Origin: Candidatus Uhrbacteria bacterium RIFOXYB12_FULL_58_10
GTDB lineage: Bacteria; Patescibacteriota; Patescibacteriia; UBA9934; GWF2-40-263
DNA: 64,000 bases
Direction: 5' to 3'
Assembly: GCA_943354165.1 (NCBI GenBank)
Contig: CALRBH010000002.1
Coordinates: forward strand, 5,734-69,733
The translations under genes were made by a program, and so were the position numbers. This document shows positions 19,590 through 58,332 of the stretch, piece by piece. Positions within the stretch are counted from its first letter, which is position 1. Each line of letters starts with the position of its first letter. Under the pieces are notes generated by a model. The model did not search any database. It was not told the origin of the DNA and saw nothing but the letters and a program-made list of their open reading frames with translations.

Positions 19590-19605
19590 CCCCCTAACTT
19601 CCTTT

Positions 19606-37228: not shown

Positions 37229-38674
37229 ATGAATTCCGACCATAAAATGGTCGGTGTACTCGTTATGACTACTCACGAGTTGTGGCAAGCCGTGTTGGGA
37301 GAACTTGAATTGTCTTTAAGCAAGGCAAATTTCACAACTTGGTTTAAGAGTACCTTCGTGGCAGAGATCGGAGCAAGTGATGCGTGCATTGGCGTCCCAA
37401 ACCTTTTCACCAAAGCCTGGCTTGAGAAGAAATATCACAAGGAAATCCTGCAGAGCCTGCAAAACCTTACAGACGAACGCGTTCGGACCGTTTCCTATCG
37501 CGTAGAAGCGCGACCGACAGGTGTACAGATCATAGATTCCATTGATCCCGCTCCACTCACAAGCACGATCACCACTCATCAGGAAGCAAACGAGATTCCA
37601 CCGTTCGCTACGGAGTCCGTGCGTATACCTTCCTTTGAGAGCGGAGAATTCACTTTGAATGGCAAGTACACATTCTCCAGCTTTATCGTTGGAAAGCAGA
37701 ATGAACTCGCCCACGCCGCGGCTCAGGCCGTTTCTGGGAACCCAGGTGGCGTCTACAACCCGCTCTTCCTCTATGGTGGGGTAGGACTCGGAAAAACCCA
37801 CCTACTTCAGGCCGTTGGAAACGAACTCCTTCGAAAGAATCCGACGATCAAAGTGCTTTATGTTACCAGTGAACGTTTCACTAACGATTATATTCAAGCT
37901 GTACGCAGCGGAAAAACTCAGGATTTCAAGAACCGTTACCGCAACATCGATCTCCTTCTTGTAGACGACATTCAATTCATCGCAGGGAAGGAAAGCACCC
38001 AAGAAGAGTTCTTCCACACCTTCAACCACTTATATCAAAGCAATAAACAGATTGTTCTCACCTCCGATCGCCCTCCAAAAGCGATCCAGCAAGTGGAACA
38101 TCGCCTCGTTTCCCGTTTCGAATGCGGAATGCTCGCCGACGTAGGAAATCCAGATTACGAAACGCGCGTCGCTATCCTTGAGTCCAAGTGTCGCGACAAA
38201 AACTATCCGCTCGACCGCGACGTCATGCACCACCTCGCCACCATCGTGCAAAGCAACGTTCGAGAACTGGAAGGAGCCCTCAATAAAATCATTGCCTTCC
38301 ACCAATTCAAAAATACGCTTCCTTCGCTCGAGAGTGTGAAGCCGATTCTCTCCAGCTTCAATACGCAGTCACAGAAAAAATCCGTCACCCCAAAAATTCT
38401 CATCAGTACAGTAGCTGTCTATTTCGACGTAGCGATCGAAGACCTGCTTGGAAAGAGTCGCGAGAAGCGTCTCGCTTTTCCGCGACAGATTGTGATGTAT
38501 CTCATGCGAGAGGAACTGAAGTCGAGCTATCCTTCAATCGGGAATGAACTCGGCGGACGTGATCACACCACAGCCATGCACGCGTACGAAAAGATTTGTA
38601 ACTGTCTTTCCCAAGATGAGAAGCTTCAGCACGATATGGAACTCATCAAGCAACGCTTATACACAGCGGCATAG
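37229..38674 (+). CDS. dnaA: chromosomal replication initiator DnaA
   Basis: AAA+ Walker A LFLYGGVGLGKTHLL and C-terminal DNA-binding domain (TAMHAYEKI). Start may be the internal Met at 37265. Confidence 0.95.
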   Translation: MNSDHKMVGVLVMTTHELWQAVLGELELSLSKANFTTWFKSTFVAEIGASDACIGVPNLFTKAWLEKKYHKEILQSLQNLTDERVRTVSYRVEARPTGVQIIDSIDPAPLTSTITTHQEANEIPPFATESVRIPSFESGEFTLNGKYTFSSFIVGKQNELAHAAAQAVSGNPGGVYNPLFLYGGVGLGKTHLLQAVGNELLRKNPTIKVLYVTSERFTNDYIQAVRSGKTQDFKNRYRNIDLLLVDDIQFIAGKESTQEEFFHTFNHLYQSNKQIVLTSDRPPKAIQQVEHRLVSRFECGMLADVGNPDYETRVAILESKCRDKNYPLDRDVMHHLATIVQSNVRELEGALNKIIAFHQFKNTLPSLESVKPILSSFNTQSQKKSVTPKILISTVAVYFDVAIEDLLGKSREKRLAFPRQIVMYLMREELKSSYPSIGNELGGRDHTTAMHAYEKICNCLSQDEKLQHDMELIKQRLYTAA

Positions 38675-38991
38675 AAACATCACACAGGATATTCACAGTT
38701 GTGCGTTGATTGAGCACAATTTGTCCACATGTTATTCCTTGTCTAAAAGGTGTGGAGAAGTGGAATATATCTGGGTATAAGACTCCTCAAATCATGTGGA
38801 TAGAAATAGGGAATAATTCATCCAACCATTCCATCCCCAGTCCACACACCTTTCCCCCACGGGTCTTTCCACATGAACACAAGAATTTTTCCCGTGAATT
38901 CATTCACTGAAATCGACTTGTCCACGCCATCCACACCCCTTATTGTTACTACTAGTATATCTACATATAAACTCTTACTAATAAGCCACCT
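38675..38991. promoter_or_regulatory. candidate oriC (dnaA-dnaN intergenic): degenerate DnaA boxes plus AT-rich unwinding stretch
   Basis: ttgtccaca at 38721-29, tgtggatag, tgtggagaa, and several xTCCACA variants. A 50-nt AT-rich tract (ttattgttactactagtatatctacatataaactcttactaataa) lies immediately before dnaN. Confidence 0.45.
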
Positions 38992-40116
38992 ATGAAACTG
39001 TCGTGTACGAGAGAAAATCTGTTCCAAGGGTTGGCGATCGCAAGTCACCTCACTTCCAAGAACGTAAACCTTCCTGTTCTTCAGAACATCCTCATCCAAG
39101 CGGAGGGAGGTACAATTCGTTTCACGACAACGAATCTTGAAATTGCCGTTCGCTGCATCGTCCGAGGAAAAGTCGATGAGCCGGGTGAAGTGACGGTTCC
39201 ATCCAAATTGTTTTACGACTATGTTTCTCTCCTTCCGAACGAAACGGTTTCCGTAGATGGAAACGCAACATCGCTCTCCGTAGTGTGTGGTGGATATAAA
39301 ACCAAAATGAACGGACTGTCCGCTTCCGAGTTTCCGCTCGTTCCAGACGTTCAAGCCGCCGTCTCTGTTTCCATTCCCGTTCCAGCCCTTCGTGAAGCGC
39401 TCTCCCGAGTTCTCTTCGCCGTCTCAACCAACGAATCCCGCCCAGAGCTCACAGGCGTCTACATGCGGTTCGAAAAGACAGAGAACAGCTACAACCTCAT
39501 CTTGGCTTCCACGGACTCGTACAGGCTCTCTGAATCCGTTATAGCGCTTGAAAAAGGGTTGGAAGACAAGCAGGTCATTATCCCTGCAAGGACACTTGGG
39601 GAAGTGAACCGCATTCTTTCGGTATTTAAAGATGATGTAGAGGCCGCCGCTCACATCGAGATGCGTTTATCCGACAATCAAGCGGTATTTCGCTTCGGAA
39701 CCGTCGAGTTGGTTTCAAGAATTATCGAAGGAAACTACCCAGATTACCGTCAGATCATCCCAAAAACCTTCGAAACCACATCGGTTATCGACCGTGACGA
39801 CTTCGTAAAGTCGGTGAAGACCGCCGCGTTGTTTTCAAAGAATGGTTTGTTCGACGTAACCCTTTCATTCGCTAAGGATGGCCTTACGGTTCGCTCCGTC
39901 GACGCCCAGCGCGGGGAAAACACCGCGATATGTCCTGCAAATGTCACAGGGAAGGACAATACCGTGACCGTAAACTATCGATATCTCCTCGATGGATTGT
40001 CCGCCTGTGCCAGCGACAACGTCATTTTCGAAATGATCGATGCAAGCAATCCGTGTGTTGTACGTCCATCGGACGCAAAAGGCTATTTATACATTGTGAT
40101 GCCGATTAAGCAGTAG
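38992..40116 (+). CDS. dnaN: DNA polymerase III beta sliding clamp
   Basis: 374 aa with three-domain clamp architecture. Position directly after dnaA. Confidence 0.9.
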   Translation: MKLSCTRENLFQGLAIASHLTSKNVNLPVLQNILIQAEGGTIRFTTTNLEIAVRCIVRGKVDEPGEVTVPSKLFYDYVSLLPNETVSVDGNATSLSVVCGGYKTKMNGLSASEFPLVPDVQAAVSVSIPVPALREALSRVLFAVSTNESRPELTGVYMRFEKTENSYNLILASTDSYRLSESVIALEKGLEDKQVIIPARTLGEVNRILSVFKDDVEAAAHIEMRLSDNQAVFRFGTVELVSRIIEGNYPDYRQIIPKTFETTSVIDRDDFVKSVKTAALFSKNGLFDVTLSFAKDGLTVRSVDAQRGENTAICPANVTGKDNTVTVNYRYLLDGLSACASDNVIFEMIDASNPCVVRPSDAKGYLYIVMPIKQ

Positions 40117-44115: not shown

Positions 44116-44559
44116 TTACATCGCTTCACGGGCAAGTGTGGCGATATCAAGCTCGTCCATGTGCGACAGGTTCTTCGGAACTTCACCTTTGATACGAGCT
44201 TGTAGATCCGTGTGAAGCGCGGCCTTAAGCTCGTTCATGTTCTGCTGTGCGTCGCACAGCACAATCGACTCGAATTCGTCGTGGCGGAAACGGCGGAGAA
44301 GATCTTCGTTAATCTTGCGATGAAGCTCTGCACGAGTGAGATCATCTCGGTTGTCGTTACTTGAGGTCGATCGAACGTCGCCAGCCCCCGTCACGGAGTT
44401 CTGATGATCGCGACCAGGCTGTTCCTCTTCCTTGGAAGAGATGAACGCGAGCACTTCGACCTCGCTATTCGCGGCGCGGAGGAACTTTGCACGCTCATTT
44501 CCGGCGACAACGATCATGGTGTTGCTATCAAATGGGCGGACGGAGGAGGGGAGGGTCAT
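44116..44559 (-). CDS. hypothetical protein, possibly host-attachment/baeRF-like
   Basis: 147 aa. N-terminal MIVVAGNERAKFLRA resembles the xVLVADGSRARIF start of Host_attach-type proteins. Weak assignment. Confidence 0.4.
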   Translation of the reverse strand: MTLPSSVRPFDSNTMIVVAGNERAKFLRAANSEVEVLAFISSKEEEQPGRDHQNSVTGAGDVRSTSSNDNRDDLTRAELHRKINEDLLRRFRHDEFESIVLCDAQQNMNELKAALHTDLQARIKGEVPKNLSHMDELDIATLAREAM

Positions 44560-48674: not shown

Positions 48675-48814
48675 TATTTCCGCTATTCATAGCAAAATAA
48701 AGCGTCAACCCCCATTGACAAAGAGGGATTTTTGTGCTATAAATCTACGTTCGGAAGATTGGAATGTTTCCAGTCTTCCGCAACAATTTTCGTCAGACAA
48801 CCCAGGAGGAAGCT

Positions 48815-49951
48815 ATGGCAGGTGGACACGGACATGGAAAGAAAGATGACCATCACGCTCCGACGCCGGATCCGAAAGGTTCCAAAGGGGGTTCGAATGG
48901 ACCCAAGCAGGGCGTCTGGGGTGAAATGCTCGGAAAAATGTCTGGATGGATTGGGGCCTTGGCCCTCATCATCCCGACCGCCATCACGGCCAGGTTCGCT
49001 GCTCTGGGCAATGACAATGCCCGTGACGCGTTCACCGGCTTCGCTGGTGAGTGGTTCGAAGACAAGTCCGAGAAGCTGATCAAGAACCCGGGCTCCTGGC
49101 TCAAAAAGCACCTGCCGAAGATCAAGCCGTTCTTCAAGGATGAGAAAGTAAACGCGGCTCTCTCTGAGCTTGCAGGCTTCCTCGTCAAAGAGGGAGCAGG
49201 CAAGCACAAAGGCGCTTACTTCTTCGGCGAGATTCTCACCCGCGGCCTCAAGGGTGTGGGTGAAGGACTCAGTGAAGATGCAGAGATCGAAGCCCTCACG
49301 GCTGGTCTCACTGCGGATGGCACATTCGCGGCAGATACCAAGGTCGGTACCGGCCCCTGTTGCTACATCAAGGGTCGCCGCAGCCGCTACGCCCACTTCA
49401 ACCTGCACTGCGAAAATCTGACCGATGACATCGAGCAGATCGAGCAGCCCAAGGAGAAGACGGTCATGATCGGCACGACCCTCGGTAGAGGCAGGGATGC
49501 AATCCCCGCCATCACCACCGAGACTCACGAGGTGAAGCCGGAAGAGGCCAAGCTGGTGAAAGGTGCTTCCATTGAGGAGGCGCGGCTCGCGAAGAAGTCG
49601 TCGGGATTCTGTCCTGATTGCACACCGGAGAAGTATTTGCGCAGGCCCGATGGCACGCTTGCCGCTCCTCCCGAGACCGAGCAGAAGGAAGATCCCAAGC
49701 ACAAAGACGAGCACGCCGATCACCACGATGAACCGAAGGGGTTCGCCGGCAAGGTGAAGGCAGTCGTCACGGGCTTCCGTGAGGCGGCCGGGGTGGTGGT
49801 GGAAACCATCAACCCGAATCCGCATCGGCTCGATGAGCTCGCGAAGCTCAAGGGCAAGCGCGCGAACAACAAGATCGACATCGCTCGTCACGCCGACGAA
49901 CTGCGCAAGCAGGATCCCAACCATCCGCTGCTCGCGAAGCTCAAGGCGTAG
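48815..49951 (+). CDS. novel His/Lys-rich protein with one N-terminal TM helix and paired-Cys motifs
   Basis: Strong RBS (caggaggaagct-ATG). MAGGHGHGKKDDHH N-terminus. TM WIGALALIIPTAITARFAAL. Cys motifs GPCCY, HCEN, CPDC. His-rich C-terminal region. GC-rich. The long antisense ORF 48737..49924 was judged an artefact. Confidence 0.5.
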   Translation: MAGGHGHGKKDDHHAPTPDPKGSKGGSNGPKQGVWGEMLGKMSGWIGALALIIPTAITARFAALGNDNARDAFTGFAGEWFEDKSEKLIKNPGSWLKKHLPKIKPFFKDEKVNAALSELAGFLVKEGAGKHKGAYFFGEILTRGLKGVGEGLSEDAEIEALTAGLTADGTFAADTKVGTGPCCYIKGRRSRYAHFNLHCENLTDDIEQIEQPKEKTVMIGTTLGRGRDAIPAITTETHEVKPEEAKLVKGASIEEARLAKKSSGFCPDCTPEKYLRRPDGTLAAPPETEQKEDPKHKDEHADHHDEPKGFAGKVKAVVTGFREAAGVVVETINPNPHRLDELAKLKGKRANNKIDIARHADELRKQDPNHPLLAKLKA

Positions 49952-49973
49952 CCCAGCAAGTAGCGACCACTGG

Positions 49974-50069
49974 CTCCGCAGAGACGACGATCCTCGTCGT
50001 CTCTGCGGATGCCCCCAACCTCAATAGAGACGGCCTAATAAGCGTGCAGACGGTCATCCGTCTGTGCAC
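49974..50069 (+). other. two perfect GC-rich hairpins without T-runs (ccgcagagacgacg-atcc-tcgtcgtctctgcgg and gtgcagacgg-tcat-ccgtctgtgcac)
   Basis: Read directly. They lie between 48815..49951 and 50112..51140. Confidence 0.5.
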
Positions 50070-50111
50070 CAGTTCGGCTCTCAACGCAGCAACCAAGAAA
50101 GAAGGTACCTC

Positions 50112-51140
50112 GTGACCACTCCAGCGATCCCTCAAAACCAACCTGCTCCCGCCCTCCCGACGCCCCCGGTGGATCCCGCCGAAGCCTTGGCACAAGCCAT
50201 GGCCGAGGACAACACCGACGCGGCGGACGAAGCCGCCCTGCAAGCGCGGGTGGACAAGCACAACACCTGGTGGGGGCGTGCAAAGGCGGCGGGGATTTTC
50301 CTCGTCGTGCTGCCCCTCGTGATCGTCGCCGGCAGCCTCTGCCTTCTGGGCGGTGGCTGGCTCGCCATCCAGTTCGATTCTCCCATGGGGGGATCACTGG
50401 CGGCACTCCTCGGTGCGATCGGCATCATCGTTGCGATGGGCCCGCTCGCGTTGCTCCAGAATGTGGCGAATTTTGCCACGGCGATCTTCGACAACGTCGG
50501 ATGGCTGAAGGCCTTCAAGGACAAGGTCCCAGACCAGATCACCACGTTCGGGCGGATGTTCTCGATCTTCGCGGCGCTGATGGGACTTTTGACCATCATC
50601 CCCGCGTACCGGGCAAGTGCGCTCATCTGGCTCCACTTCCCGCTCTCGATCACACTGCTCGTAGTGTTCTACATGTTCGCCTTGAGAGAAGCGAAACGTG
50701 ATCCCGAGGACGAGCTGAGCAAAAACCTGGCAAGCAGTGGTCGCCTCATGGGCACCATCGCGAAGGTAGCGATCGTCGTGGCGGCTCTCTCAGCGATTAT
50801 CAACGTATCTCCCGAGGCGCGTGAAGTTCTGCTCGACCAGGGCGGTATCCTGCTCTTGGTCGCCATCGCTCTCATCTATGTCGCCGCAAAGACAGAGAAG
50901 ACGAAGATCACGGTCTTCTCTCTCCTCGGGGCTGCAGTGGCGTGTGGGCTCGCGGTGGTGATGGTGACTCGGGACCAGCCCAAGCACGCTCAACCCGCTG
51001 CGGTCGACTGGACCGTGATTGCCGAGCAAGCAGGGAAGTCGAAACCGCCGCGGTACGTCCCACAAGCTCCTTCCAGCACCAAACGGCCGCTCACCCGCAG
51101 TGAGTTCAAAGCGGAGTTCGACGCCATCGGCATCGAATAA
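50112..51140 (+). CDS. novel polytopic membrane protein (about 7 TM) with Pro-rich N-terminus
   Basis: GTG start after RBS gaaagaagg. Seven hydrophobic helices. GC-rich. No family recognised. Confidence 0.5.
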   Translation: MTTPAIPQNQPAPALPTPPVDPAEALAQAMAEDNTDAADEAALQARVDKHNTWWGRAKAAGIFLVVLPLVIVAGSLCLLGGGWLAIQFDSPMGGSLAALLGAIGIIVAMGPLALLQNVANFATAIFDNVGWLKAFKDKVPDQITTFGRMFSIFAALMGLLTIIPAYRASALIWLHFPLSITLLVVFYMFALREAKRDPEDELSKNLASSGRLMGTIAKVAIVVAALSAIINVSPEAREVLLDQGGILLLVAIALIYVAAKTEKTKITVFSLLGAAVACGLAVVMVTRDQPKHAQPAAVDWTVIAEQAGKSKPPRYVPQAPSSTKRPLTRSEFKAEFDAIGIE

Positions 51141-51196
51141 CGCCCACGTACGATAAACCCCCATCACATCTGTGAGTGGGGGTTTCGTCTTTTCGT

Positions 51197-51408
51197 GGGG
51201 CGGTTGGGTCTGTGGGGGCGGTAAGGGTGGTGAGGGTAGTAAGGGTTGTGAGGGCCGACTCTGCCCCTTACAGTCCATTACAGCCCTTACCGCCCTTACA
51301 ACCCATGAAACTGGCCAAAGGCCAGTTTCACTTAACTCAAGAATATGCTTAACCCAGCTATATATCGTGTCAACACCCCTTGACAAAAGTCTAAAAAAGT
51401 GGTATCTT
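51197..51408 (+). repeat. GTAAGGG/CCCTTAC palindromic repeat + small hairpin + TTGACA-N17-TATCTT promoter cassette, locus 2
   Basis: Seven GTNRGGGNN units (51197-51259) are followed by their inverted CCCTTAC units to 51307, then hairpin gaaactggcc-aaa-ggccagtttc, then a promoter at 51380-51408. A near-identical cassette lies at 63690-63884. Confidence 0.65.
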
Positions 51409-51519
51409 TATCCCGATGTCGAATGAAGCGTACGTGTGCGGATGGTGGGTATTTCTGCCATTTGCACCCGTACCGTTCCTTCGACAAGTACGTTGAAGCA
51501 ACTACAAGGAGTACGGCAG

Positions 51520-52200
51520 ATGAAAATTCTGATGATTCTCGCACTCGTTCTCACGTCGGCCTGTGCCACCGGCTTCGGCCTCGCCTTCGAGACCGATGAT
51601 CGCTACGCCGACTCCGTGAAGTCGGGCGAAGTGAAACGCGATGTGACCGGCGACACGTCCGATGGCGTCAGCACCGACACCACGCTCACCACCACGTTCA
51701 CCCCGGTCAAGGAATCCTCGCGGTGGAGCCTCTTGCTAAACACACCGGAGGGGATCGCCAAGATCTCGAACGCCGGTGCCGTGCGCGATGTCGCGCGAAA
51801 GGGTGACCCGGCCGTGAGCACCAACGACGGCGCCAACATCGCCACCAACGATGCGGCCGTCGGCGGAGGACTCTACGGCAGCGCGTACGGCGGCGGTGGA
51901 ACGAGCCGGCGTAAAGCCATGCTCCAAGCCAACGCAGCCCGCACTCTGCAGCTGCAACAACAGCAACCGTTTGTTCTCCCCACGAGCAGAATGGCTTCCC
52001 AGAAGGAAGTCGAAGTCGTGAAGGAAGACGTCGGCAAGCTGAAGAAAGGCATCAAAGTGATCGCGAAGCAGGTGGAGGAGCTGACCCCAGAAACGTCAGC
52101 CACTCCTCCCGCTCCCGCTCCGCCGCCGGCGCCCGTGACCAGCACGCCGCCGGACAAACCCAGCGGCAAACAACCGGGCGTTCCAGAAACGATCGACTAG
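51520..52200 (+). CDS. hypothetical lipoprotein (Gly/Ala/Pro-rich)
   Basis: RBS caaggag. Signal/lipobox MKILMILALVLTSAC. Pro-rich C-terminus. Confidence 0.5.
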   Translation: MKILMILALVLTSACATGFGLAFETDDRYADSVKSGEVKRDVTGDTSDGVSTDTTLTTTFTPVKESSRWSLLLNTPEGIAKISNAGAVRDVARKGDPAVSTNDGANIATNDAAVGGGLYGSAYGGGGTSRRKAMLQANAARTLQLQQQQPFVLPTSRMASQKEVEVVKEDVGKLKKGIKVIAKQVEELTPETSATPPAPAPPPAPVTSTPPDKPSGKQPGVPETID

Positions 52201-52310
52201 CTCGATCAGCGTCCATTCTCACAACTCTTTTCCCAGAGAGACTTCAATCTCTGGGCTTCCCGCAAGCTGCCGTGTATTTCGCACGGCCGCTTACGCAGAA
52301 GGACTCTCCC

Positions 52311-52793
52311 ATGAACAATCGCTTCTTTTCCCTCGTGTTCGTTCTCATCACCCTCACCTCGGCCTGCGCCAGCACCCAGAACCGCGTGCTGCAGCCCGAG
52401 TTCACCCTCCCGTCCTTCACCCTCGCGGCCTTCGCCGAAGGCTCCGACGTGCAGGCGGGGATCGGCGGCTGCACCCGCAACGGCCGCGGCCTCTGCGTGA
52501 CCTACGCAGCGAACAAGATCGACAACCATGACCTGCGCGATCTCCAGCAGATGTACCTCATCTGTGCCTACGATCCCGCTGACGGTAGCAAGATCGTGAC
52601 CGGCTCTGCCAACGGATGCATCCGGGCCTTCGACAAGATGTCCCCGATCTTCATCGACAATGTTCCATTGCGTGGTCAGGTCACCATCACTCTCGAGCAG
52701 GTCGTCTCCCTCCAGGAACCGCCCGTGATGCTCGCCCGCCGTACCTGCACGAAGGTCCCGGGTCCGTACGAGAACTTCATCAATTGCAACTAA
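52311..52793 (+). CDS. hypothetical Cys-containing lipoprotein
   Basis: Signal/lipobox MNNRFFSLVFVLITLTSAC shares the LTSAC lipobox with the preceding gene. Six further Cys residues. Confidence 0.5.
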   Translation: MNNRFFSLVFVLITLTSACASTQNRVLQPEFTLPSFTLAAFAEGSDVQAGIGGCTRNGRGLCVTYAANKIDNHDLRDLQQMYLICAYDPADGSKIVTGSANGCIRAFDKMSPIFIDNVPLRGQVTITLEQVVSLQEPPVMLARRTCTKVPGPYENFINCN

Positions 52794-52824
52794 ATGAAAA
52801 GAGGGCCAAACTGGCCCTCCACTG

Positions 52825-52856
52825 AACCTGACCACTCGGTCAGGTTTTCTGTTTGT
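52825..52856. terminator. intrinsic terminator (gaacctgacc-actcg-gtcaggttttc)
   Basis: Sits between convergent 52311..52793(+) and the pilin array(-). Confidence 0.55.
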
Positions 52857-52864
52857 ATTCTCAA

Positions 52865-53245
52865 TTAACCTGTTCCGGATGCCGTGGCCAGCGACGAAAC
52901 GACGAAGTTTGCGATGGCGTAGGCGGCGACAATGATCACGAGACCGATGATCGAGTTAGTGATGAGCTTCTTGGCCTGTTCCACCTTCTTTCCCTCACCC
53001 TGGTCTGTGAGGTAGAGGAAACCTGCGTAGACGATAATGACCACGAAGATGATCCCGAGAAGACCGAGGAAGACGTTAATAAAACGTCCGATCAGCTCTG
53101 GTAGCGATTGTGTGCCTACGTTAAGTTTTGTGGCATTAAGTGTGCCAACTGCATCATTAATACCCTGGGCGTGGGTAATAAGCGGCAGGAACGCAGCGCC
53201 TACAGCAGCAGAGACAGCACCGATACGAGCGGTAAGACGGTTCAT
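52865..53245 (-). CDS. VirB2/TrbC-like pilin paralog 1
   Basis: Signal peptide. Conserved core INVFLGLLGIIFVVIIVYAGFLYLTDQGEGKKVEQAKKLITNSIIGLVIIVAAYAIANF (TM-loop-TM with AKK motif). Confidence 0.65.
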   Translation of the reverse strand: MNRLTARIGAVSAAVGAAFLPLITHAQGINDAVGTLNATKLNVGTQSLPELIGRFINVFLGLLGIIFVVIIVYAGFLYLTDQGEGKKVEQAKKLITNSIIGLVIIVAAYAIANFVVSSLATASGTG

Positions 53246-53285
53246 AGATATGGAGATAATTAGTCGATTGGTAGTATATCACGCT

Positions 53286-53726
53286 TTAGGCGGAAGGGAG
53301 CTCATCCGGGAGTGGAGCCCCTGGCCCGGTCTGATTCTGGGAACAGACCGGATCCAGCGGATTGTCTGCACAGATTCTCGCCCGTTCGGCTTCAACCGCT
53401 CCGCGATCCTCGAAGATCCCAAAGATGAGGTTCAAGAGGATGAAGTTTGTCAGGGCGTAGGCGCTGATCACGATGACGATCCCGATGACCGCATTACTGA
53501 TCGTTCCCTTGGCTTTTTTGATCTGCTCCTCGTTTCCCTGAGAGGTAAGATACAGGAAACCCGCGTACACGAGCAAGATCACCAGGGCAAGACCCAGCAT
53601 CCCGAGGACGATGTCGATGAGATATCCGATGCTTTCGGCAATATTGGGAGCGGTGGATCCAGTTGCAAACCCGCCCGTACCTGCGGCGCTGTCCAGACTA
53701 GATTGAAACGAAGATAAGGCGCTCAT
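53286..53726 (-). CDS. VirB2/TrbC-like pilin paralog 2
   Basis: Same core (IDIVLGMLGLALVILLVYAGFLYLTSQGNEEQIKKAKGTISNAVIGIVIVISAYALTNF). Divergent N- and C-termini. Confidence 0.65.
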   Translation of the reverse strand: MSALSSFQSSLDSAAGTGGFATGSTAPNIAESIGYLIDIVLGMLGLALVILLVYAGFLYLTSQGNEEQIKKAKGTISNAVIGIVIVISAYALTNFILLNLIFGIFEDRGAVEAERARICADNPLDPVCSQNQTGPGAPLPDELPSA

Positions 53727-53735
53727 AGGGAGGGA

Positions 53736-54182
53736 TTATGAACCGGACAAGAATACCAATTGCGGAAGGAAGAATGAAACGATCGTGAAGGCGGACACGA
53801 CGATCACGATACCAATAACTGCATTTACCAACGCACCTTTTGCTTTTTTGACCCGCTCAACATCTCCCTGGGCCGTGAGGTACAGAATTCCTCCCCAAAC
53901 AAACAGGACGACGAGGATAAGTCCGGATAAGGCGAGCACAGCATTCACAATCTGACCAATAAGCGGAGCGAGTTTTTGTGGTTCACGGCCAAATCCCGCC
54001 GCATTTCCGGCGTCCTGTAGCCCACCAAGTGTACTCTGCGCCCGCGCGATGGGCGGAAACGCCAATAACCAAAGACTCACAGTCGCTATCCAGGAGGAGT
54101 TTCGCATAACGTTTAAGGGCGCCCCGAGAGGCGCCCTTATGCGCCATGCCCCCTCGCCGTCCCGATTCCCCTCCTTCGCCAA
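53736..54182 (-). CDS. VirB2/TrbC-like pilin paralog 3
   Basis: Core IVNAVLALSGLILVVLFVWGGILYLTAQGDVERVKKAKGALVNAVIGIVIVVSAF. Likely start at internal Met 54107 (MRNSSWIATVSLWLLAFPPIARA). Confidence 0.6.
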   Translation of the reverse strand: MAKEGNRDGEGAWRIRAPLGAPLNVMRNSSWIATVSLWLLAFPPIARAQSTLGGLQDAGNAAGFGREPQKLAPLIGQIVNAVLALSGLILVVLFVWGGILYLTAQGDVERVKKAKGALVNAVIGIVIVVSAFTIVSFFLPQLVFLSGS

Positions 54183-54223
54183 GGAGGGGTTAGGGGTGGT
54201 TGCCGAGAGGTTGGCCTGTCTGT

Positions 54224-54655
54224 TTAGCTGGTAGCGGTCGCAAGGCGGCCGATCACGAAGGTAGCGATGGCGAAGCTTGAGAGGATGATGGCGAGCCCGA
54301 TCACACCCGAGATCATGAGCTTCTTAGCCTGCTTGACCTTGTCGTCATTGCCGCCGGACGTCATCCAGAGGAAACCTCCGTAAAGGATGATGACCACTGC
54401 GACGATACCGAGGAAGCTGAGAGCCGTGTTGATAATGCTGGCAATGGTGGTGGTGAGTTCCTGATTGCCGAGACCCGAGGCTCCGGCAAAAGCATCTTTG
54501 CCTGATCCTGAGTCTCCGCCGAAGAAGAAGTCCAGGTCGCTGCCTGCTGCTGGTGCTGGTGTCTGTGCCTTCGCAAATGGAGCGAGGGCGAACGTGGTTG
54601 CGGTGGCGCCTGCGGTTGCTGACCAGCCGACAAGCTTGGCAATGGAGAGCTTCAT
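54224..54655 (-). CDS. VirB2/TrbC-like pilin paralog 4
   Basis: Signal peptide MKLSIAKLVGWSATAGATA. Core IINTALSFLGIVAVVIILYGGFLWMTSGGNDDKVKQAKKLMISGVIGLAIILSSFAIATF. Confidence 0.65.
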   Translation of the reverse strand: MKLSIAKLVGWSATAGATATTFALAPFAKAQTPAPAAGSDLDFFFGGDSGSGKDAFAGASGLGNQELTTTIASIINTALSFLGIVAVVIILYGGFLWMTSGGNDDKVKQAKKLMISGVIGLAIILSSFAIATFVIGRLATATS

Positions 54656-54680
54656 AAGTTATGCCCTTGTGGGCTTATGG

Positions 54681-55049
54681 TTAAACGCTGCCCGTTGTGA
54701 TGGCGCCTACCAGCGCATTCACAAGAGCGTACGCGGTGAATAATACCACAATGCCTATGGAGGCCCAAATCAACGTATCCTTTCCTTTCTGAATCATCTT
54801 CGGATTCCCCTGGGAGAGGATCCACATGAACCCGCCATAGATGAAGGCGAGCAGGGCGAGGGCCCCGGAGAAGCCGAGGAGAGCCGCTACGATCTGTCCG
54901 ATGATTACGTTGATGTCGGATGTGCCTTTTGGATTAGCGGGCGTTCCACCGATCGGATTTATGAGCGTGGCGGCATGTACGACCGCGACGAGGAGAAAAC
55001 TCGCGAGCACGGTTCCGCCAATGACGAAGTGTTTTTTAGAGATTTTCAT
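54681..55049 (-). CDS. VirB2/TrbC-like pilin paralog 5
   Basis: Start at MKISKKHFVIGGTVLASFLLVAVVHA. Core IIGQIVAALLGFSGALALLAFIYGGFMWILSQGNPKMIQKGKDTLIWASIGIVVLFTAYALVN. Confidence 0.6.
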   Translation of the reverse strand: MKISKKHFVIGGTVLASFLLVAVVHAATLINPIGGTPANPKGTSDINVIIGQIVAALLGFSGALALLAFIYGGFMWILSQGNPKMIQKGKDTLIWASIGIVVLFTAYALVNALVGAITTGSV

Positions 55050-55057
55050 AGGTCGGC

Positions 55058-55651
55058 TTATGGAGTGGGGGCAATAAGTTCTACACACTCTCCGTTCGCG
55101 TTTTTTGCGCAGAATACTCTCCTAAGCGTCGTGATGGCCGCAAAGGCGATGAAGACGATCACCAGCCCGATCGTTGCAATCCTCAACCCATCCTTTCCTT
55201 TCTTGATGTTCTCATCAAATCCGCCAGGAAGGTATGCGGCGCCAATCCATCGGACTCCGGAAATAGTGTACATGAGGAAGACGAGCGCGCCCACAATTCC
55301 GAGAATGAACACGCCGACATTGTTCACGACCGTCATGACGTCCGTCAGTTGGCAATCGCCGGTGTTGTAACACTTTGAAGCGATGTCCTGCATGAATGGA
55401 CCAACATCCGCGTGGCTGCATGTGTCCTCTTTGCAGACACCAGTGCCTTTTGGGGTAGCTGGAGTGGTTGTAGATCCTGGTGTAGTGGAGGCGGGAGCAC
55501 AAGGTGATCCTGTGTTACTACAGCATGCAAGGCATTCTTGTCGTTGTCGACTTGCATCCGGCAGAGGCGTGCAAAATTGCTGGACGCAACTTTCTGCGGA
55601 GGCGACAAATGGAGATACAAGGAAAACAAGTACGATGAACAAAGATCTCAT
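55058..55651 (-). CDS. VirB2/TrbC-like pilin paralog 6 with Cys-rich N-terminal extension
   Basis: Signal peptide MRSLFIVLVFLVSPFVASA, then about 70 aa with 12 Cys. Conserved core VFILGIVGALVFLMYTISGVRWIGA ... IKKGKDGLRIATIGLVIVFIAFAAI. Confidence 0.6.
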   Translation of the reverse strand: MRSLFIVLVFLVSPFVASAESCVQQFCTPLPDASRQRQECLACCSNTGSPCAPASTTPGSTTTPATPKGTGVCKEDTCSHADVGPFMQDIASKCYNTGDCQLTDVMTVVNNVGVFILGIVGALVFLMYTISGVRWIGAAYLPGGFDENIKKGKDGLRIATIGLVIVFIAFAAITTLRRVFCAKNANGECVELIAPTP

Positions 55652-57024
55652 AGAGTTTGAGCAACCTTATTTTGAGCGGTCCGGATGAGATCTTCTGCGA
55701 TCTGACCTGCAAGGACACCATCGATCAGGTCAAACATCGCCTGTTCCGCCACTTCGATATTGTTCCCCTTGTACCAGCTCTTGGCCGTCAGGAGCTGGCT
55801 TGAGAAGACTGTGAGGGTTTCGTTTTCTAAGCTGTTCTGGATAAGGACGCGGAGGGCTGGTGGCTTCTGAGCGAGCTTGAGATAGGTGCCTGCCTGTTCC
55901 TTGCGGGTCATGAACTGGGTGAAGTCCCAGGCCCAGTGCTGGTTTTTGCTTGCCTTCGCGACCGCAAAGGCCCAGTAGTTGGCGTAGTTTACGAGCTTGC
56001 CTCCCTCAATCTGCGGAAACGGCATGATGCCGATGTTGAGCTTAGGCGCCCGCGCCTTGATGAAGGGGAGATGGTAGGAGTAGCCAAAGAAGAAAGCGGT
56101 TTTCCCGGAAACGAACGCGTCGAAGGACGGAGGCTGCTGCGAGTTCCAGGTATAGACGTTCTTCGTAGGGTTTGCGAAATCCGCATAGAAGCGCGTGGCG
56201 TCCGCCCCGGGAATCGTGTCGTCGTCGAGTTCGGCGGCGAACGTTGGGCGTCCGCGGTCGTCCGTCATCGGCGTGCCGTTCTGCATCATGAGCGCGGAGA
56301 GGATGTCGAACGAGCGTTCCGTGTTCCGGCTGGTGCCGATGGCGGCCCCGGACTGGATGATGGCATCGTTCGGGCCAATCGAGGTGAGTGCCTTCACGGC
56401 CTCGTGGAACTGCGTCCAGGTGGCTGGGGGCTCAATGATGCCGGCGGTGTTCAGCAGATCCTTGTTGTAGTACACGCCGAGCGTATCCACGGAGAGAGGG
56501 AGGGCCCAGACGCGTTCCTCAGGCACGGCTTTTGCGTTGGCTTGGAAAGGTTTGATGAGGTCAGAGGAGACTACGTCGACGAAATCCTTGCGGACCTGTG
56601 CTGGAGTAATCGTTCGCTCCGTGCGAATGGTAGTGATCGTCTCTTTTTTGATGGTCCCTTTCGTTTCTGTGTAGGGAATGTCGAGGCTCTTCGGAAGCGG
56701 GGCCATGAGGCTCTGCTCTTCGCCGATCCAAGTGTTGTGGATCATGAAGATGTCCGGTCCGGATCCTTCCGCGAAGGCGCGAACGAGGGCTTCCTTGTAC
56801 TCTTCGACACGCAGTTCGCGGTAATTGAAGCTGACGTTGGGGTGGATGGCCTGGTAGCTGGTCATGAGGCTCTGGTAGAACTCTCGGGAATCAAACACGC
56901 CCCAGACGTTGATGGCTACGGGCTTGGCAGCGGCAATCTCGGCGGCGCTTGGACCTCCGCAGCTTTGGCCCGTGAGGACCAGCGAGGAAGCAAGGAGAAA
57001 CGCAAACAGTTTTGTAGATTTCAT
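55648..57024 (-). CDS. ABC-transporter substrate-binding lipoprotein (solute-binding family 1, sugar-type)
   Basis: Lipobox MKSTKLFAFLLASSLVLTGQSC. Periplasmic binding fold length. Its stop overlaps the start of pilin paralog 6 (4-nt overlap). Confidence 0.75.
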   Translation of the reverse strand: MKSTKLFAFLLASSLVLTGQSCGGPSAAEIAAAKPVAINVWGVFDSREFYQSLMTSYQAIHPNVSFNYRELRVEEYKEALVRAFAEGSGPDIFMIHNTWIGEEQSLMAPLPKSLDIPYTETKGTIKKETITTIRTERTITPAQVRKDFVDVVSSDLIKPFQANAKAVPEERVWALPLSVDTLGVYYNKDLLNTAGIIEPPATWTQFHEAVKALTSIGPNDAIIQSGAAIGTSRNTERSFDILSALMMQNGTPMTDDRGRPTFAAELDDDTIPGADATRFYADFANPTKNVYTWNSQQPPSFDAFVSGKTAFFFGYSYHLPFIKARAPKLNIGIMPFPQIEGGKLVNYANYWAFAVAKASKNQHWAWDFTQFMTRKEQAGTYLKLAQKPPALRVLIQNSLENETLTVFSSQLLTAKSWYKGNNIEVAEQAMFDLIDGVLAGQIAEDLIRTAQNKVAQTL

Positions 57025-57063
57025 AATAGGGTACAAACGATTTCTCGCATTGTACCCTATTTA

Positions 57064-57930
57064 CTACTTCATTGTCTTAAGATATCGCTTCAGATCCTTT
57101 CCGATTTCCGGATGTTTGAGGCCGAGTTCCACCTGCGCCTTGAGAAATCCGAGCTTATTTCCGCAGTCATACCGCGTCCCTTCGAACAAATGGCCGTAGA
57201 TGGGGCGTCCGCCGAGCAAGTACGTGGCGAACGCATCTGCCAATCGGATTTCACCGTCTTTGCCCGCGCGCTGGTCCTCGAGGATGGCGAGCATGTCCGG
57301 TGTCAGAACGTATCGGCCAATGACGATGTTGTTGCTTGGTGCCTGCGCTGGAGACGGTTTCTCAACGAATTTCGAAACTTCCCAGGTTGTGGCATCAAGT
57401 TTACGTCCGCCGATCACTCCATAGTTCGAAACGTCCTTTTTTTGCACCTGCTGCAGCGCAACGATGGGATCCTGATATTTTTCATACACGTCGAGGAGCT
57501 GCTTCATGGCCGGAACCTTGCTGTCGATGATGTCGTCGCCGAAAAGCACGGCGACCGGTTCGTGTCGATCGAGGAAGGGGAGCGCGGCGAGGATCGCGTG
57601 GCCATCGCCCATGGGTTTGTTCTGCCGCACGAACGCAAATTTGGCGAGCTTGCCGATGCGTCCCACAAGCGCGAGCTCCTTTGTCTTCTTTTTCTGCTCA
57701 AGGCGATACTCAAGCTCGAAGTTCCTATCGAAATGATCCTCGATCGCGCGCTTGCCGAGTGAGGTCACGAAGATGATTTCCTCGATCCCGCTCGCCACAG
57801 CTTCTTCCACGATGTATTGGATGACAGGCTTATCCACCACGGCTAACATTTCCTTAGGCTGAGCCTTGGAAGCGGGGAGAAACCGGGTGCCGAGCCCGGC
57901 CACGGGGATGACGGCTTTTCGAATACGCAT
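57064..57930 (-). CDS. galU: UTP-glucose-1-phosphate uridylyltransferase
   Basis: KAVIPVAGLGTRFLPASKAQPKEML N-terminal signature. 288 aa. Confidence 0.9.
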   Translation of the reverse strand: MRIRKAVIPVAGLGTRFLPASKAQPKEMLAVVDKPVIQYIVEEAVASGIEEIIFVTSLGKRAIEDHFDRNFELEYRLEQKKKTKELALVGRIGKLAKFAFVRQNKPMGDGHAILAALPFLDRHEPVAVLFGDDIIDSKVPAMKQLLDVYEKYQDPIVALQQVQKKDVSNYGVIGGRKLDATTWEVSKFVEKPSPAQAPSNNIVIGRYVLTPDMLAILEDQRAGKDGEIRLADAFATYLLGGRPIYGHLFEGTRYDCGNKLGFLKAQVELGLKHPEIGKDLKRYLKTMK

Positions 57931-57969: not shown

Positions 57970-58332
57970 CTAACTCTTTTTCAGCGCTTTCATCGTCTTG
58001 ATGTTCTTAATCGGAGACTTTTTCTTGTCGACGATATCCTTCGCGCAGATTTGAAGAATGTGGTGCATCTGGTCCCGGTCATCGAACCATTCTTCTGGGA
58101 TAATAAATGCGGGAATGGCCCCTGGATACGGCGATGCGGTCTTGGCCTGGTGCTCCAGCATCTCTACGGTGCGCTCCGTCATCTTGATGAACACCGTATC
58201 GTCGCAGATGAACCCAACCATGGCGCCATCATAGTAGATGCCGTATTCGCCAAACATCGACCGGACATGCACGTGCTTGTCATCGCTGATGATGTCGAGG
58301 ATGTGCTGGGCAAAGTCTTTTGAGGTGGACAC
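57970..58332 (-). CDS. TfoX/Sxy N-terminal domain protein
   Basis: 120 aa. FAQHILDII ... VRSMFGEYGIYYDGAMVGFICDDTVFIK fits the TfoX_N domain. Confidence 0.6.
   Translation of the reverse strand: MSTSKDFAQHILDIISDDKHVHVRSMFGEYGIYYDGAMVGFICDDTVFIKMTERTVEMLEHQAKTASPYPGAIPAFIIPEEWFDDRDQMHHILQICAKDIVDKKKSPIKNIKTMKALKKS

What the first reader, a model, noticed from the sequence alone, without database searches (positions are those of the whole stretch)
52865..57024. Tandem array of six divergent VirB2/TrbC-like pilin paralogs co-transcribed with an orphan solute-binding lipoprotein
Six consecutive minus-strand genes encode 120-200-aa proteins. They share one conserved TM-loop-TM core (...LG.LG...V.I.L.Y.GF.Y.T.QG......KKAK......IG.VI...A.A..NF) but have hypervariable N-terminal and C-terminal regions. 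The most upstream member carries a 12-Cys extension. The upstream sugar-type ABC substrate-binding protein gene overlaps the first pilin start by 4 nt, which implies a single transcript. No permease, ABC ATPase or VirB4/VirD4 ATPase is present in the window. Such diversified pilin arrays are characteristic of ultra-small episymbiotic bacteria, where they are thought to mediate host contact. Diversification across tandem copies suggests selection for surface variation.
Basis: partly seen in the sequence, partly recalled or inferred. Interest (0 to 1): 0.75.

Follow-up and report, generated by a model that had tools for sequence, protein, structure and literature searches.

The report
Sugar-binding lipoprotein plus ordered pilin operon
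Six small membrane proteins of the kind that build conjugation-type pili sit in one operon with a sugar-binding lipoprotein in an ultra-small (Patescibacteria) bacterium; such pilin arrays are already known, but the fixed gene order and the constant sugar-binding partner, seen in dozens of species, appear not to have been described.

Summary
Six minus-strand genes (52865-55651) all match Pfam PF18895 (T4SS_pilin) above its threshold. The first has 12 cysteines, and its ATG overlaps the stop of a family-1 solute-binding lipoprotein gene by 4 nt. The window holds no ABC permease or ATPase and no VirB4/VirD4.

The pilin reading is supported, but it is not new. VirB2-like pilin arrays of 2-11 genes were reported in 383 Patescibacteria assemblies (Quinonero-Coronel 2025), and one array is essential in a cultivated species (Wang 2023).

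Two points appear to be new:
- **The binding protein is a constant partner.** In 37 of 37 informative species loci found through it (30-62% identity), a pilin array follows directly on the same strand. None has an ABC ATPase or VirB4 nearby.
- **The array is ordered and old.** The pilins fall into three classes, A-B(1-2)-C(2-6), in the same order in 23 of 24 genomes. A and B are usually Cys-rich; C is small and mostly Cys-free. Of 143 pilins, 111 resemble a pilin in another genome more than any paralogue of their own.

This weakens the reading of recent diversification for surface variation and fits major and minor pilins better. The function of the binding protein is only inferred.

The parts
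57049..57078 (-). Promoter-like site (AAGACA, 18-nt spacer, TACAAT) between the galU stop and the binding-protein start
   Evidence: Consensus scan, and sequence read. This is a prediction only. The whole region had 5 such sites against 3.7 expected by chance.
55648..57024 (-). Family-1 (oligosaccharide-type) solute-binding lipoprotein, 458 aa. An alternative TTG start lies at 57036.
   Evidence: Pfam SBP_bac_1 at 110 bits and SBP_bac_8. The AF2 model has pLDDT 89.7. Its best Foldseek PDB matches are GacH, CbpB, the sophoro-oligosaccharide binding protein and cyclo/maltodextrin-binding proteins, at E about 1e-22. The lipobox LTGQSC was identified by inspection. The same 458-aa protein is in public gene calls.
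55058..55651 (-). Class A pilin, 197 aa. It has a signal-peptide-like N-terminus and 12 Cys, with the conserved motif C-x-N-x-G-D-C-x-L-x-D-V-M just before the first helix.
   Evidence: PF18895 at 31.9 bits. ATGA overlap with the binding-protein stop. It clusters only with first-position pilins of other genomes. Orthologue alignment.
54681..55049 (-). Class B pilin, 122 aa from the ATG. A GTG at 55088 would give 135 aa.
   Evidence: PF18895 at 45.5 bits, and TrbC PF04956 at 30.2 bits, above its gathering score of 27.9. Class assignment. Public gene call of 122 aa.
54224..54655 (-). Class C pilin, first of four ('C1'), 143 aa. It is the most conserved member across species.
   Evidence: PF18895 at 40.1 bits. 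Its best match is the first class-C gene in 20 of 23 other genomes. Median core identity to those is 0.60, against 0.50 to its closest own paralogue.
53736..54107 (-). Class C pilin, 123 aa from the ATG. A TTG at 54182 would give 148 aa.
   Evidence: PF18895 at 56.6 bits and TrbC at 25.2 bits. NF045849 at 41.9 bits, above its cut-off of 40. The exact 123-aa protein is in a public assembly. The AF2 model shows a helical hairpin, residues 46-78 and 83-122.
53286..53726 (-). Class C pilin, 146 aa. It has no N-terminal hydrophobic signal segment and carries a 46-aa C-terminal tail with 2 Cys.
   Evidence: PF18895 at 43.3 bits. NF045849 at 43.9 bits. Hydropathy.
52865..53245 (-). Class C pilin, 126 aa, last gene of the operon
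   Evidence: PF18895 at 46.3 bits. NF045849 at 43.2 bits.
52800..52820 (-). Terminator-like hairpin (9 pairs, 6 of them G-C) followed by TTTTCATTT. It lies 45 nt after the last pilin stop and is preceded by a second hairpin at 52824-52847.
   Evidence: and sequence read. Prediction only.
57064..57930 (-). galU-type nucleotidyltransferase, directly upstream on the same strand. It is a frequent but not universal neighbour of the module.
   Evidence: Pfam NTP_transferase. A homologue lies directly upstream of the binding-protein gene in 21 of 39 species loci. It is 86% identical in the syntenic genome GCA_004297215.1.

Best explanation
**What it is.** This is one operon of a Patescibacteria (Uhrbacteria-like) chromosome. 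It encodes a lipid-anchored, oligosaccharide-type solute-binding protein followed by six VirB2-like pilins of three old classes (A, B, then four C).

**Shown here**
- Family membership of all seven proteins.
- The two-helix hairpin with a basic loop.
- The conserved gene order.
- The conserved binding-protein/pilin adjacency.

**Inferred mechanism**
- The genes are transcribed together.
- The pilins enter the membrane through Sec, with the KKAK loop on the cytoplasmic side and both termini outside.
- A T4SS encoded elsewhere extracts them and polymerises them into a surface filament.
- The small Cys-free class C proteins, above all the conserved C1, form the shaft.
- The classes that carry disulfide-rich outer domains in most genomes act as minor or tip subunits that contact the host. 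Here only class A is Cys-rich.
- The binding protein does not feed a neighbouring ABC importer. It works with the filament as its glycan receptor or sensor at the epibiont-host interface.
For: **Family**
- All six pilins match PF18895 above threshold, and one also passes TrbC/VirB2.
- 124 of 124 pilins of related arrays match PF18895, and 24 match TrbC.
- Five of six hit NF045849, the Mycoplasma ICE pilin-like conjugal transfer protein. Three are above its cut-off.

**Shape**
- The AF2 model shows a helical hairpin with core pLDDT of about 90.
- Hydropathy and the basic loop fit that topology.

**Operon**
- ATGA overlap, short gaps, one promoter-like site upstream and one terminator at the end.

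**Partner**
- In 37 of 37 informative species loci found through the binding protein, 2-8 pilin genes follow on the same strand.
- The first pilin ATG lies -4 to +27 nt from the binding-protein stop in 31 of 37 loci.
- From the pilin side, 23 of 38 informative metagenome loci carry the binding protein directly upstream.
- No ABC-ATPase motif pair occurs in about 550 kb of flanks.

**Order and age**
- Classes follow the order A-B-C in 23 of 24 genomes.
- 111 of 143 pilins are closest to a pilin of another genome.
- Median Cys counts are 12 (A), 7.5 (B) and 0 (C).
- No long DNA repeats occur among the six genes.

**Supporting context**
- DsbD-, thioredoxin- and DsbA-like genes and LspA are in the window.
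- Pilin arrays are essential in a cultivated Saccharibacterium, and a pilus is proposed there.
Against: - No VirB4, VirB6 or VirD4 lies in the window or within 8-10 kb in any of about 40 related loci. The link to a T4SS therefore rests on family membership alone.
- Foldseek found no significant match of the pilin model to solved pilins.
- A profile comparison with Agrobacterium VirB2 gave only 18% probability.
- No expression, protein or imaging data were available.
- Promoter and terminator are consensus matches only.
- The binding protein has an ordinary ABC-receptor fold, so it could still serve a transporter encoded elsewhere.
- 15 of 38 pilin-seeded loci lack the binding protein. Six of these have hisS followed by a giant pilin-core protein. 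The partner is therefore not needed by every array.
- In this window the class B pilin has no Cys.
Confidence: 0.55

Rival explanations
1. The six copies are a diversifying set kept for surface or antigenic variation or for host-range breadth. Each paralogue would be an interchangeable major pilin.
For: - Paralogues are only 20-50% identical, and their termini cannot be aligned.
- The number of class C genes varies from 2 to 6 between genomes.
- The literature draws the analogy with Bartonella and Anaplasma VirB2 paralogues.
Against: - Class order A-B-C is the same in 23 of 24 genomes.
- First-position pilins cluster only with first-position pilins.
- 111 of 143 pilins have a closer relative in another genome than in their own.
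- C1 keeps a median core identity of 0.60 across species.
- No duplication or gene-conversion tracts are present.
- The classes differ systematically in size and Cys content. That pattern indicates different roles.
Confidence: 0.15
2. The binding protein is an ordinary receptor of an ABC sugar importer whose permease and ATPase genes lie elsewhere. It shares an operon with the pilins only because both are needed when a host is contacted, and the two do not interact physically.
For: - The fold is a confident MalE-like oligosaccharide-binding fold with no unusual domains.
- Orphan binding-protein genes are common in bacteria (general knowledge).
- The beta-hairpin insertion found in the close relatives is missing in the distant pilin-linked homologues, so no universal extra interface is evident.
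Against: - Adjacency holds in 37 of 37 informative loci as identity falls to 30%. That spans many named candidate phyla.
- Spacing is typically -4 to +27 nt.
- None of about 40 loci has an ABC ATPase motif pair within 8-10 kb.
- Linkage this stable is unusual for genes that are only co-regulated.
Confidence: 0.2
3. The two-helix proteins are not filament subunits. They would be membrane anchors or a membrane-embedded oligomer that displays outer domains, and possibly docks the binding protein, independently of any T4SS.
For: - No T4SS gene lies near the module in any locus examined.
- Relatives carry very large outer domains on the same core: 1316 aa with 69 Cys in L032, and proteins over 1000-2000 aa next to hisS.
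- One relative carries a peptidoglycan-binding domain.
- Many library proteins hold 2-16 cores in one chain.
- The fold search returns only generic helical hairpins, such as ATP synthase subunit c.
Against: - Family models built on conjugation pilins match.
- In Saccharibacteria the same family lies inside the essential T4SS cluster.
- Pilin genes were found near virB4 in 1135 of 1948 assemblies.
- In type IV pili, a different pilus system, minor pilins with large modules are known. This comes from my own knowledge and was not checked.
Confidence: 0.25

Closest known systems
VirB2-like pilin arrays of Patescibacteria (Quinonero-Coronel et al. 2025, PMC12102498; essential array of Ca. Southlakia epibionticum ML1, Wang et al. 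2023, PMC10633639)
   Same: - The Pfam family is the same (PF18895, with weaker PF04956 matches).
- The genes are in tandem in a Patescibacteria chromosome. The ML1 array also has six.
- Identity within the array is low. The paper reports a mean of 25% and a maximum of 54%; here it is 20-50%.
- The array lies near the replication origin, 15-20 kb from dnaA.
   Different: - The array is not in or near a virB4 cluster.
- It is preceded by, and translationally coupled to, a family-1 solute-binding lipoprotein. The paper's text does not contain 'solute', 'ABC' or 'sugar'.
- It has a fixed A-B-C class order shared by many species.
- The paper found arrays most abundant in Microgenomatia and Saccharimonadia. 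These loci carry Uhrbacteria-, Falkowbacteria-, Moranbacteria- and Paceibacteria-type names.
TrbC/VirB2 conjugative pilins of diderm T4SS (Pfam PF04956; Agrobacterium VirB2, RP4 TrbC)
   Same: - They are small proteins with a long signal peptide, two hydrophobic helices and a short basic loop.
- The AxA-Q junction resembles the AAA-QSAGGG site of VirB2 (by inspection).
- The tail after the second helix is short and rich in Gly, Ser and Thr.
- One of six passes the PF04956 threshold.
   Different: - Five of six fall below the PF04956 threshold.
- The profile comparison with VirB2 was weak.
- No virB3 or virB4 lies next to them.
- The host is a monoderm.
- There are several specialised paralogues instead of one major pilin.
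- Some carry Cys-rich outer domains.
NCBIfam NF045849, Mbov_0395 family pilin-like conjugal transfer protein of Mycoplasma integrative conjugative elements
   Same: - It has the same 80-residue two-helix core.
- Three of the six score above the curated cut-off and two more just below.
- The host is also a monoderm. The Patescibacteria T4SS is reported to share ancestry with the MPF-FATA class, which is found in conjugative elements of Tenericutes among other groups.
   Different: - These genes are chromosomal and not visibly in a conjugative element.
- They form an array of six.
- A binding-protein partner is present.
- The class A member does not match this model.
Orphan binding proteins that serve T4SS regulation: PrgZ/TraC of enterococcal pheromone plasmids and ChvE of Agrobacterium (from my own knowledge, not checked here)
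   Same: A solute-binding protein without its own transporter genes is functionally tied to a conjugation-type system. PrgZ is also a lipoprotein encoded beside a monoderm T4SS.
   Different: - PrgZ is a peptide-binding, family-5 protein, and ChvE belongs to another binding-protein family.
- Both act on gene regulation.
- Neither is translationally coupled to pilin genes.
- This is an analogy only; no membership is claimed.

Membership tests
Pfam PF18895 T4SS_pilin | Score above the curated gathering threshold (26.6 bits) | tested here: met
   All six pass, at 31.9-56.6 bits. 124 of 124 pilins of related arrays match at E <= 1e-3.
Pfam PF18895 T4SS_pilin | Two hydrophobic helices joined by a short basic loop | tested here: met
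   Hydropathy segments, alignment, and AF2 helices 46-78 and 83-122 with pLDDT of about 90.
TrbC/VirB2 pilins (PF04956) | Score above the gathering threshold (27.9 bits) | tested here: inconclusive
   One of six passes (30.2 bits). The others score 15.7-25.2 bits or do not match. 24 of 124 relatives match at E <= 1e-3, best 3e-9.
TrbC/VirB2 pilins (PF04956) | Detectable homology to Agrobacterium VirB2, or structural match to solved pilins | tested here: inconclusive
   hhalign gave 18% probability, E 1.3e-3, over 39 columns in the expected register. Foldseek against the PDB gave nothing below E 0.9. A profile search of PDB sequences gave only spurious matches.
TrbC/VirB2 pilins (PF04956) | Encoded in a T4SS gene cluster with virB3, virB4 and virB6 | tested here: not met
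   None in the 64-kb window nor within 8-10 kb in about 40 related loci. The rest of the genome could not be searched.
TrbC/VirB2 pilins (PF04956) | Signal-peptide removal, C-terminal processing or cyclisation, and polymerisation into a lipid-bound pilus | not testable with these tools
   By inspection only, five of six have a signal-peptide-like N-terminus, three of them ending in AxA-Q.
NCBIfam NF045849 (Mbov_0395 pilin-like conjugal transfer protein) | Score above the curated cut-off (40 bits) | tested here: inconclusive
   Three pass (41.9, 43.9 and 43.2 bits), two fall below (39.0 and 30.3), and class A has no hit.
Patescibacteria VirB2 arrays (Quinonero-Coronel 2025) | Two or more PF18895/PF04956 genes in tandem in a Patescibacteria genome, with low identity within the array | tested here: met
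   Six genes with gaps of 8-41 nt and 20-50% identity. The closest homologues of the flanking genes are all Patescibacteria or Uhrbacteria.
ABC transporter solute-binding protein, family 1 (PF01547) | Family HMM and two-lobed binding-protein fold | tested here: met
   110 bits. AF2 pLDDT 89.7. Foldseek E about 1e-22 to oligosaccharide-binding proteins, TM-score 0.65 on the query and 0.76 on the target.
ABC transporter solute-binding protein, family 1 (PF01547) | Encoded with its cognate permease and ATPase genes | tested here: not met
   None in the window. No ORF with Walker A plus LSGGQ in the window or in 41 loci. A transporter elsewhere in the genome is not excluded.
ABC transporter solute-binding protein, family 1 (PF01547) | Binds a defined sugar ligand | not testable with these tools
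   The nearest solved structures bind malto-, cello- and sophoro-oligosaccharides at 14-19% identity. Pocket residues were not mapped.

The most novel reading that the evidence does not exclude
The sugar-binding lipoprotein is a built-in component of a Patescibacteria pilus system. It would capture a host-derived oligosaccharide and either gate pilus assembly or pass the sugar to the pilus/T4SS conduit for uptake. That would be the first conjugation-type pilus with its own solute receptor. It would also give direct genetic support to the published speculation that these pili import molecules from the host.
Probability: 0.12. Interest if true: 0.85.

Novelty: new variant of a known kind. Interest (0 to 1): 0.5.

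Why it matters
The role of the Patescibacteria T4SS and its pilin arrays is an open question. They are essential in the one species tested, yet relaxases are missing from most of these clusters, and reviews can only speculate about signalling or uptake from the host.

- **A candidate partner.** A sugar-binding lipoprotein that is translationally coupled to the pilins in dozens of species can be expressed, screened for ligands and tested for pilin binding.
- **A prediction about subunits.** The conserved A-B-C order suggests which subunits form the shaft (C1 and the other class C genes) and which form the host-contacting end (Cys-rich A and B). This replaces a vague 'variation' hypothesis with a structural one.
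- **A point on origins.** The match to a Mycoplasma ICE pilin-like family suggests that such pilins may be native to monoderm T4SS and not borrowed from diderm systems. The 2025 survey left this open.

Tried and rejected
- **Pilin fold search.** Foldseek of the pilin model against the PDB returned only generic helical hairpins, with no E below 0.9. It cannot decide the fold for a two-helix protein.
- **Pilin profile against PDB sequences.** The only hits were to designed 'Pizza' repeat proteins, with no stretch passing on its own. I treated them as spurious.
- **hhalign against Agrobacterium VirB2.** The VirB2 sequence came from memory and was verified as 100% identical to annotated virB2. The comparison gave a weak result in the right register, which is inconclusive.
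- **Search for VirB4 near related arrays.** The 600-aa Walker-A ORFs in L024, L025 and L040 are FtsH, and the one in L033 is an AAA ATPase. The 1026-aa protein in L041 has no Pfam match.
- **ORFs of 450-500 aa upstream of arrays without the binding protein.** I suspected divergent binding proteins, but six of them are histidyl-tRNA synthetases.
- **The four unknown plus-strand genes next to the array (48764-52793).** I considered them as T4SS parts. They have no family match and are not conserved in any related locus.
- **The beta-hairpin insertion of the binding protein.** I considered it as a universal pilin-docking arm. It is absent from the distant pilin-linked homologues.
- **L036 and L037.** I first counted them as exceptions to the linkage. 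Both contigs end inside the gene that follows the binding-protein gene.
- **dN/dS among paralogues.** Not attempted. At 20-50% amino-acid identity, synonymous sites are saturated.
- **Literature.** Searches for a described binding-protein/pilin link, for 'PamT' and for Mbov_0395 found nothing useful. The library holds open-access papers only.

Full report
**1. What is in the sequence**

Six consecutive minus-strand ORFs lie between 52865 and 55651, with a 462-aa ORF directly upstream at 55648-57036. All six small proteins match Pfam PF18895 (T4SS_pilin) above its gathering score, at 31.9-56.6 bits against 26.6. Every other family scores below its own threshold, except TrbC/VirB2 (PF04956) for the second gene, at 30.2 bits against 27.9.

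The upstream protein matches SBP_bac_1 (110 bits) and SBP_bac_8.

The six align over a core of two hydrophobic helices joined by a basic loop (QGxxxxVKKAK). They are 20-50% identical, and their termini cannot be aligned.

The gene next to the binding-protein gene has 12 Cys. All of them lie in segments predicted to face outward.

The binding-protein stop and the first pilin start overlap as ATGA.

Public gene calls for the same genome (a Logan contig) support shorter forms of two genes: 54681-55049 and 53736-54107. Those calls also shorten the Cys-rich gene to 111 aa. I keep the 197-aa form for three reasons:
- It starts with a signal-peptide-like sequence.
- The protein sequence upstream of Met87 is conserved in orthologues.
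- The call in a syntenic genome gives a 193-aa first pilin with the same 4-nt overlap.

**2. Surroundings**

Pfam and NCBIfam scans of the window's larger ORFs show an ordinary small-genome chromosome.
- Replication genes: dnaA at 37229-38674 and dnaN at 38992-40116. The array therefore lies 15-20 kb from dnaA.
- Housekeeping genes: PolA, PNPase, PBP1, IscS-NifU, a P-type ATPase and others.
- Envelope-maturation genes: DsbD-, thioredoxin- and DsbA-like genes, and LspA.
- Absent: ABC permease, ABC ATPase, VirB4 and VirD4. A motif screen also found no ORF with both Walker A and LSGGQ.

Directly upstream on the same strand are galU and a TfoX_N gene. Downstream, four convergent genes (48764-52793, GC about 0.60) have no family match.

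The consensus scan places these sites:
- A promoter-like site at 57078-57049, just before the binding-protein gene.
- A strong terminator after the EamA gene.
- A terminator at 52820-52800, right after the last pilin (sequence).
- Nothing convincing between the binding-protein gene and the pilins.

These are predictions only.

**3. Origin**

The binding protein's closest relatives are all Patescibacteria, and Uhrbacteria is the closest named group at about 62% identity. An 842-kb contig (GCA_004297215.1) is syntenic: galU, binding protein, five pilins, unknown genes, Pyr_redox, NifU, IscS. Its GalU is 86% identical and its NifU 81%.

**4. What is already known**

Quinonero-Coronel et al. 2025 searched 3,035 Patescibacteria genomes with PF04956 and PF18895. 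They reported 441 arrays of 2-11 pilin genes in 383 assemblies, with a mean identity of 25% within arrays, and suggested adaptation to different host strains. Wang et al. 2023 showed that the pilin series inside the T4SS cluster of Ca. Southlakia epibionticum is essential. A 2025 review calls it an array of six sequence-divergent VirB2-like pilins and speculates on a pilus used for signalling or uptake. The family is very large: a profile of these pilins finds 83,000 cluster representatives at E <= 1e-3. The array as such is therefore a new member of a known kind.

**5. The binding protein is a constant partner**

*Sampling from the binding-protein side.* A scan of one genome per GTDB species returned 39 loci at 30-62% identity. 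Their record titles name Uhrbacteria, Falkowbacteria, Veblenbacteria, Yanofskybacteria, Moranbacteria, Azambacteria, Portnoybacteria and Paceibacteria-type organisms.
- An HMM of the window's six cores finds 2-8 pilin ORFs directly downstream on the same strand in 37 of them.
- In the other two, the contig ends inside the next gene.
- The first in-frame ATG of the first pilin lies -4 to +27 nt from the binding-protein stop in 31 of 37 loci. Three loci show the same ATGA overlap as the window, and so does L041.
- None of the loci has an ABC-ATPase motif pair or a VirB4 within 8-10 kb.
- galU lies directly upstream in 21 of 39.

*Sampling from the pilin side.* A metagenome scan gave 38 loci with at least 1.5 kb upstream of the array.
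- In 23, the binding-protein gene lies directly or closely upstream.
- In 6, hisS is followed by a very large protein that carries a pilin core.
- The link is therefore the majority pattern for relatives of this pilin, but it is not universal.

*Literature.* The 2025 paper does not contain the words solute, ABC or sugar. No paper in the searchable library combines Patescibacteria or CPR, pilin or VirB2, and solute- or substrate-binding protein. That library covers open-access papers only.

**6. The array is ordered and old**

I clustered the 77-column core of 143 pilins from 24 genomes.
- First-position pilins cluster only with first-position pilins (24 of 24).
- A second class holds positions 2 and, in about half of the genomes, 3.
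- A third class holds all distal genes.

The resulting architectures are ABBCCC (11 genomes), ABCCCC (7, including the window), ABCCC (3) and three singletons. Only one of the 24 departs from A-B-C order.

| Class | Median length (aa) | Median Cys | Note |
|---|---|---|---|
| A | 226 | 12 | 22 of 24 have at least 4 Cys |
| B | 210 | 7.5 | 23 of 36 have at least 4 Cys |
| C | 135 | 0 | 53 of 83 have no Cys |

Lengths are approximate, because starts were set at the first Met.

Further points:
- 111 of 143 pilins are closer to a pilin in another genome than to any paralogue of their own.
- The window's third gene (54224-54655) finds the first class-C gene as its best match in 20 of 23 other genomes. 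Its median core identity to those is 0.60, against 0.50 to its closest own paralogue.
- Class A orthologues share a Cys pair just before the first helix, C-x-N-x-G-[DN]-C-x-L-x-D-[IV]-M.
- At DNA level the six genes share only short 65-85% stretches in the core. This rules out recent duplication or gene conversion.

This pattern is what subunits with different roles would show. It is not what interchangeable variants would show. The variable number of class C genes leaves some room for variation.

**7. Tests of family membership**

- 124 of 124 pilins of binding-protein-linked arrays match PF18895, and 24 also match TrbC.
- Five of the window's six hit NCBIfam NF045849, a pilin-like conjugal transfer protein of Mycoplasma ICEs. 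Three are above its cut-off. The Patescibacteria T4SS is reported to share ancestry with the monoderm MPF-FATA class, which that paper says lacks VirB2 homologues, so this match bears on where the pilins came from.
- The AF2 model of one class C pilin is a helical hairpin (pLDDT 76 overall, about 90 in the core).
- Foldseek and PDB sequence searches were uninformative.
- hhalign against Agrobacterium VirB2 was weak, at 18% probability over 39 columns in register.
- The binding-protein model is confident (pLDDT 89.7). It matches oligosaccharide-binding proteins (GacH, CbpB, the sophoro-oligosaccharide binding protein and cyclo/maltodextrin-binding proteins) at E about 1e-22 and 14-19% identity.
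- A roughly 25-residue beta-hairpin insertion is present only in the closer relatives.

**8. Most likely mechanism**

Shown here:
- Family membership.
- Hairpin topology.
- Operon-like packing.
- Conserved order and partner.

Inferred:
- Co-transcription.
- Sec-dependent insertion, with the basic loop inside the cell and both termini outside.
- Disulfide formation in the outward-facing segments of the Cys-rich pilins, using the Dsb-like genes of the window.
- Extraction and polymerisation by a T4SS encoded elsewhere.
- Class C subunits as the shaft, and the classes that carry Cys-rich outer domains in most genomes as minor or tip subunits. Here only class A is Cys-rich.
- The lipoprotein as the system's glycan receptor or sensor.

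The weakest step is the link to a T4SS, because no VirB4 lies near any of these modules. The role of the binding protein is inferred from linkage alone. The rivals are recent diversification for variation, an importer receptor that is only co-regulated, and membrane anchors instead of filaments. Their evidence is given in the Rival explanations section.

**9. Verdict**

The array itself is a known feature of Patescibacteria. The constant binding-protein partner, the fixed A-B-C order and the separation from virB4 make it a new variant of a known kind. Interest is moderate, mainly because these features turn an open question about these pili into concrete experiments.

Noticed in passing
window 37229-40116: dnaA and dnaN lie 15-20 kb from the pilin operon, and the cumulative GC skew is lowest at 38-40 kb. 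This fits the reported origin-proximal placement of T4SS genes in some Patescibacteria. dnaA or dnaN also appear in 3 pilin-seeded metagenome loci.
   Followed up: partly
window 57970-58332: A protein consisting only of a TfoX_N domain is encoded just upstream of galU and the binding-protein gene on the same strand. It has its own promoter-like site and follows a strong terminator. It is not conserved in the related loci.
   Followed up: partly
window 14179-16004 and 19516-20361: DsbD-type membrane protein, thioredoxin-like protein and DsbA-like protein genes. They would provide an extracytoplasmic disulfide system, which fits the Cys-rich pilin ectodomains.
   Followed up: no
window 48764-52793 (+ strand): Four convergent genes with raised GC (about 0.60) and no family match. 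One is a 7-helix membrane protein, and two have an LTSAC lipobox-like motif. None has a homologue in any related locus. This may be a lineage-specific insertion.
   Followed up: partly
window 53286-53726: This class C pilin has no N-terminal hydrophobic signal segment, unlike its five neighbours. It carries a 46-aa C-terminal tail with two Cys.
   Followed up: no
window 194-1958 (- strand): Two adjacent secreted-protein genes. The one at 1053-1958 has a weak N-terminal match to NCBIfam 'CPR-type pilus protein PamT' (34.6 bits against a cut-off of 240). No paper on PamT was found.
   Followed up: partly
window 44116-44559: A small protein that matches baeRF_family12 and Host_attach ('protein required for attachment to host cells'), next to tRNA-Cys.
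   Followed up: no
window 16818-19022 and 7014-7517: A tyrosine recombinase gene (18051-19022) lies beside tRNA-Arg and tRNA-His genes. An AbiEii-type toxin nucleotidyltransferase fragment lies at 7014-7517. These may be remnants of a mobile element.
   Followed up: no
L032:9160-13110; L054, L061, L086, L094, L107, L117 (downstream of hisS): Very large proteins carry a single pilin core: 1316 aa with 69 Cys in L032, and over 1000-2000 aa in the metagenome loci. In the latter set they follow a histidyl-tRNA synthetase gene, not the binding-protein gene.
   Followed up: partly
P0136, P0137, P0166 and others: Many library proteins hold 2-16 pilin cores in one chain, for example 6 in 552 aa and 16 in 1775 aa. 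These may be true poly-pilin proteins, or arrays fused by gene calling under the wrong genetic code.
   Followed up: no
window 55648-57024, protein residues about 113-137: A beta-hairpin of about 25 residues is inserted relative to E. coli MalE (sequence recalled from memory). It is conserved in the Uhrbacteria-like relatives and absent from the distant pilin-linked homologues.
   Followed up: partly
alignment A4 (one member): One pilin of a binding-protein-linked array carries a PG_binding_1 peptidoglycan-binding domain (E 2e-9).
   Followed up: no
window 55936-57762 (+) and 53037-53717 (+): Long ORFs (608 and 226 aa) run antisense to the binding-protein, galU and pilin genes. They are by-products of the GC-rich coding strand and are not genes.
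   Followed up: no
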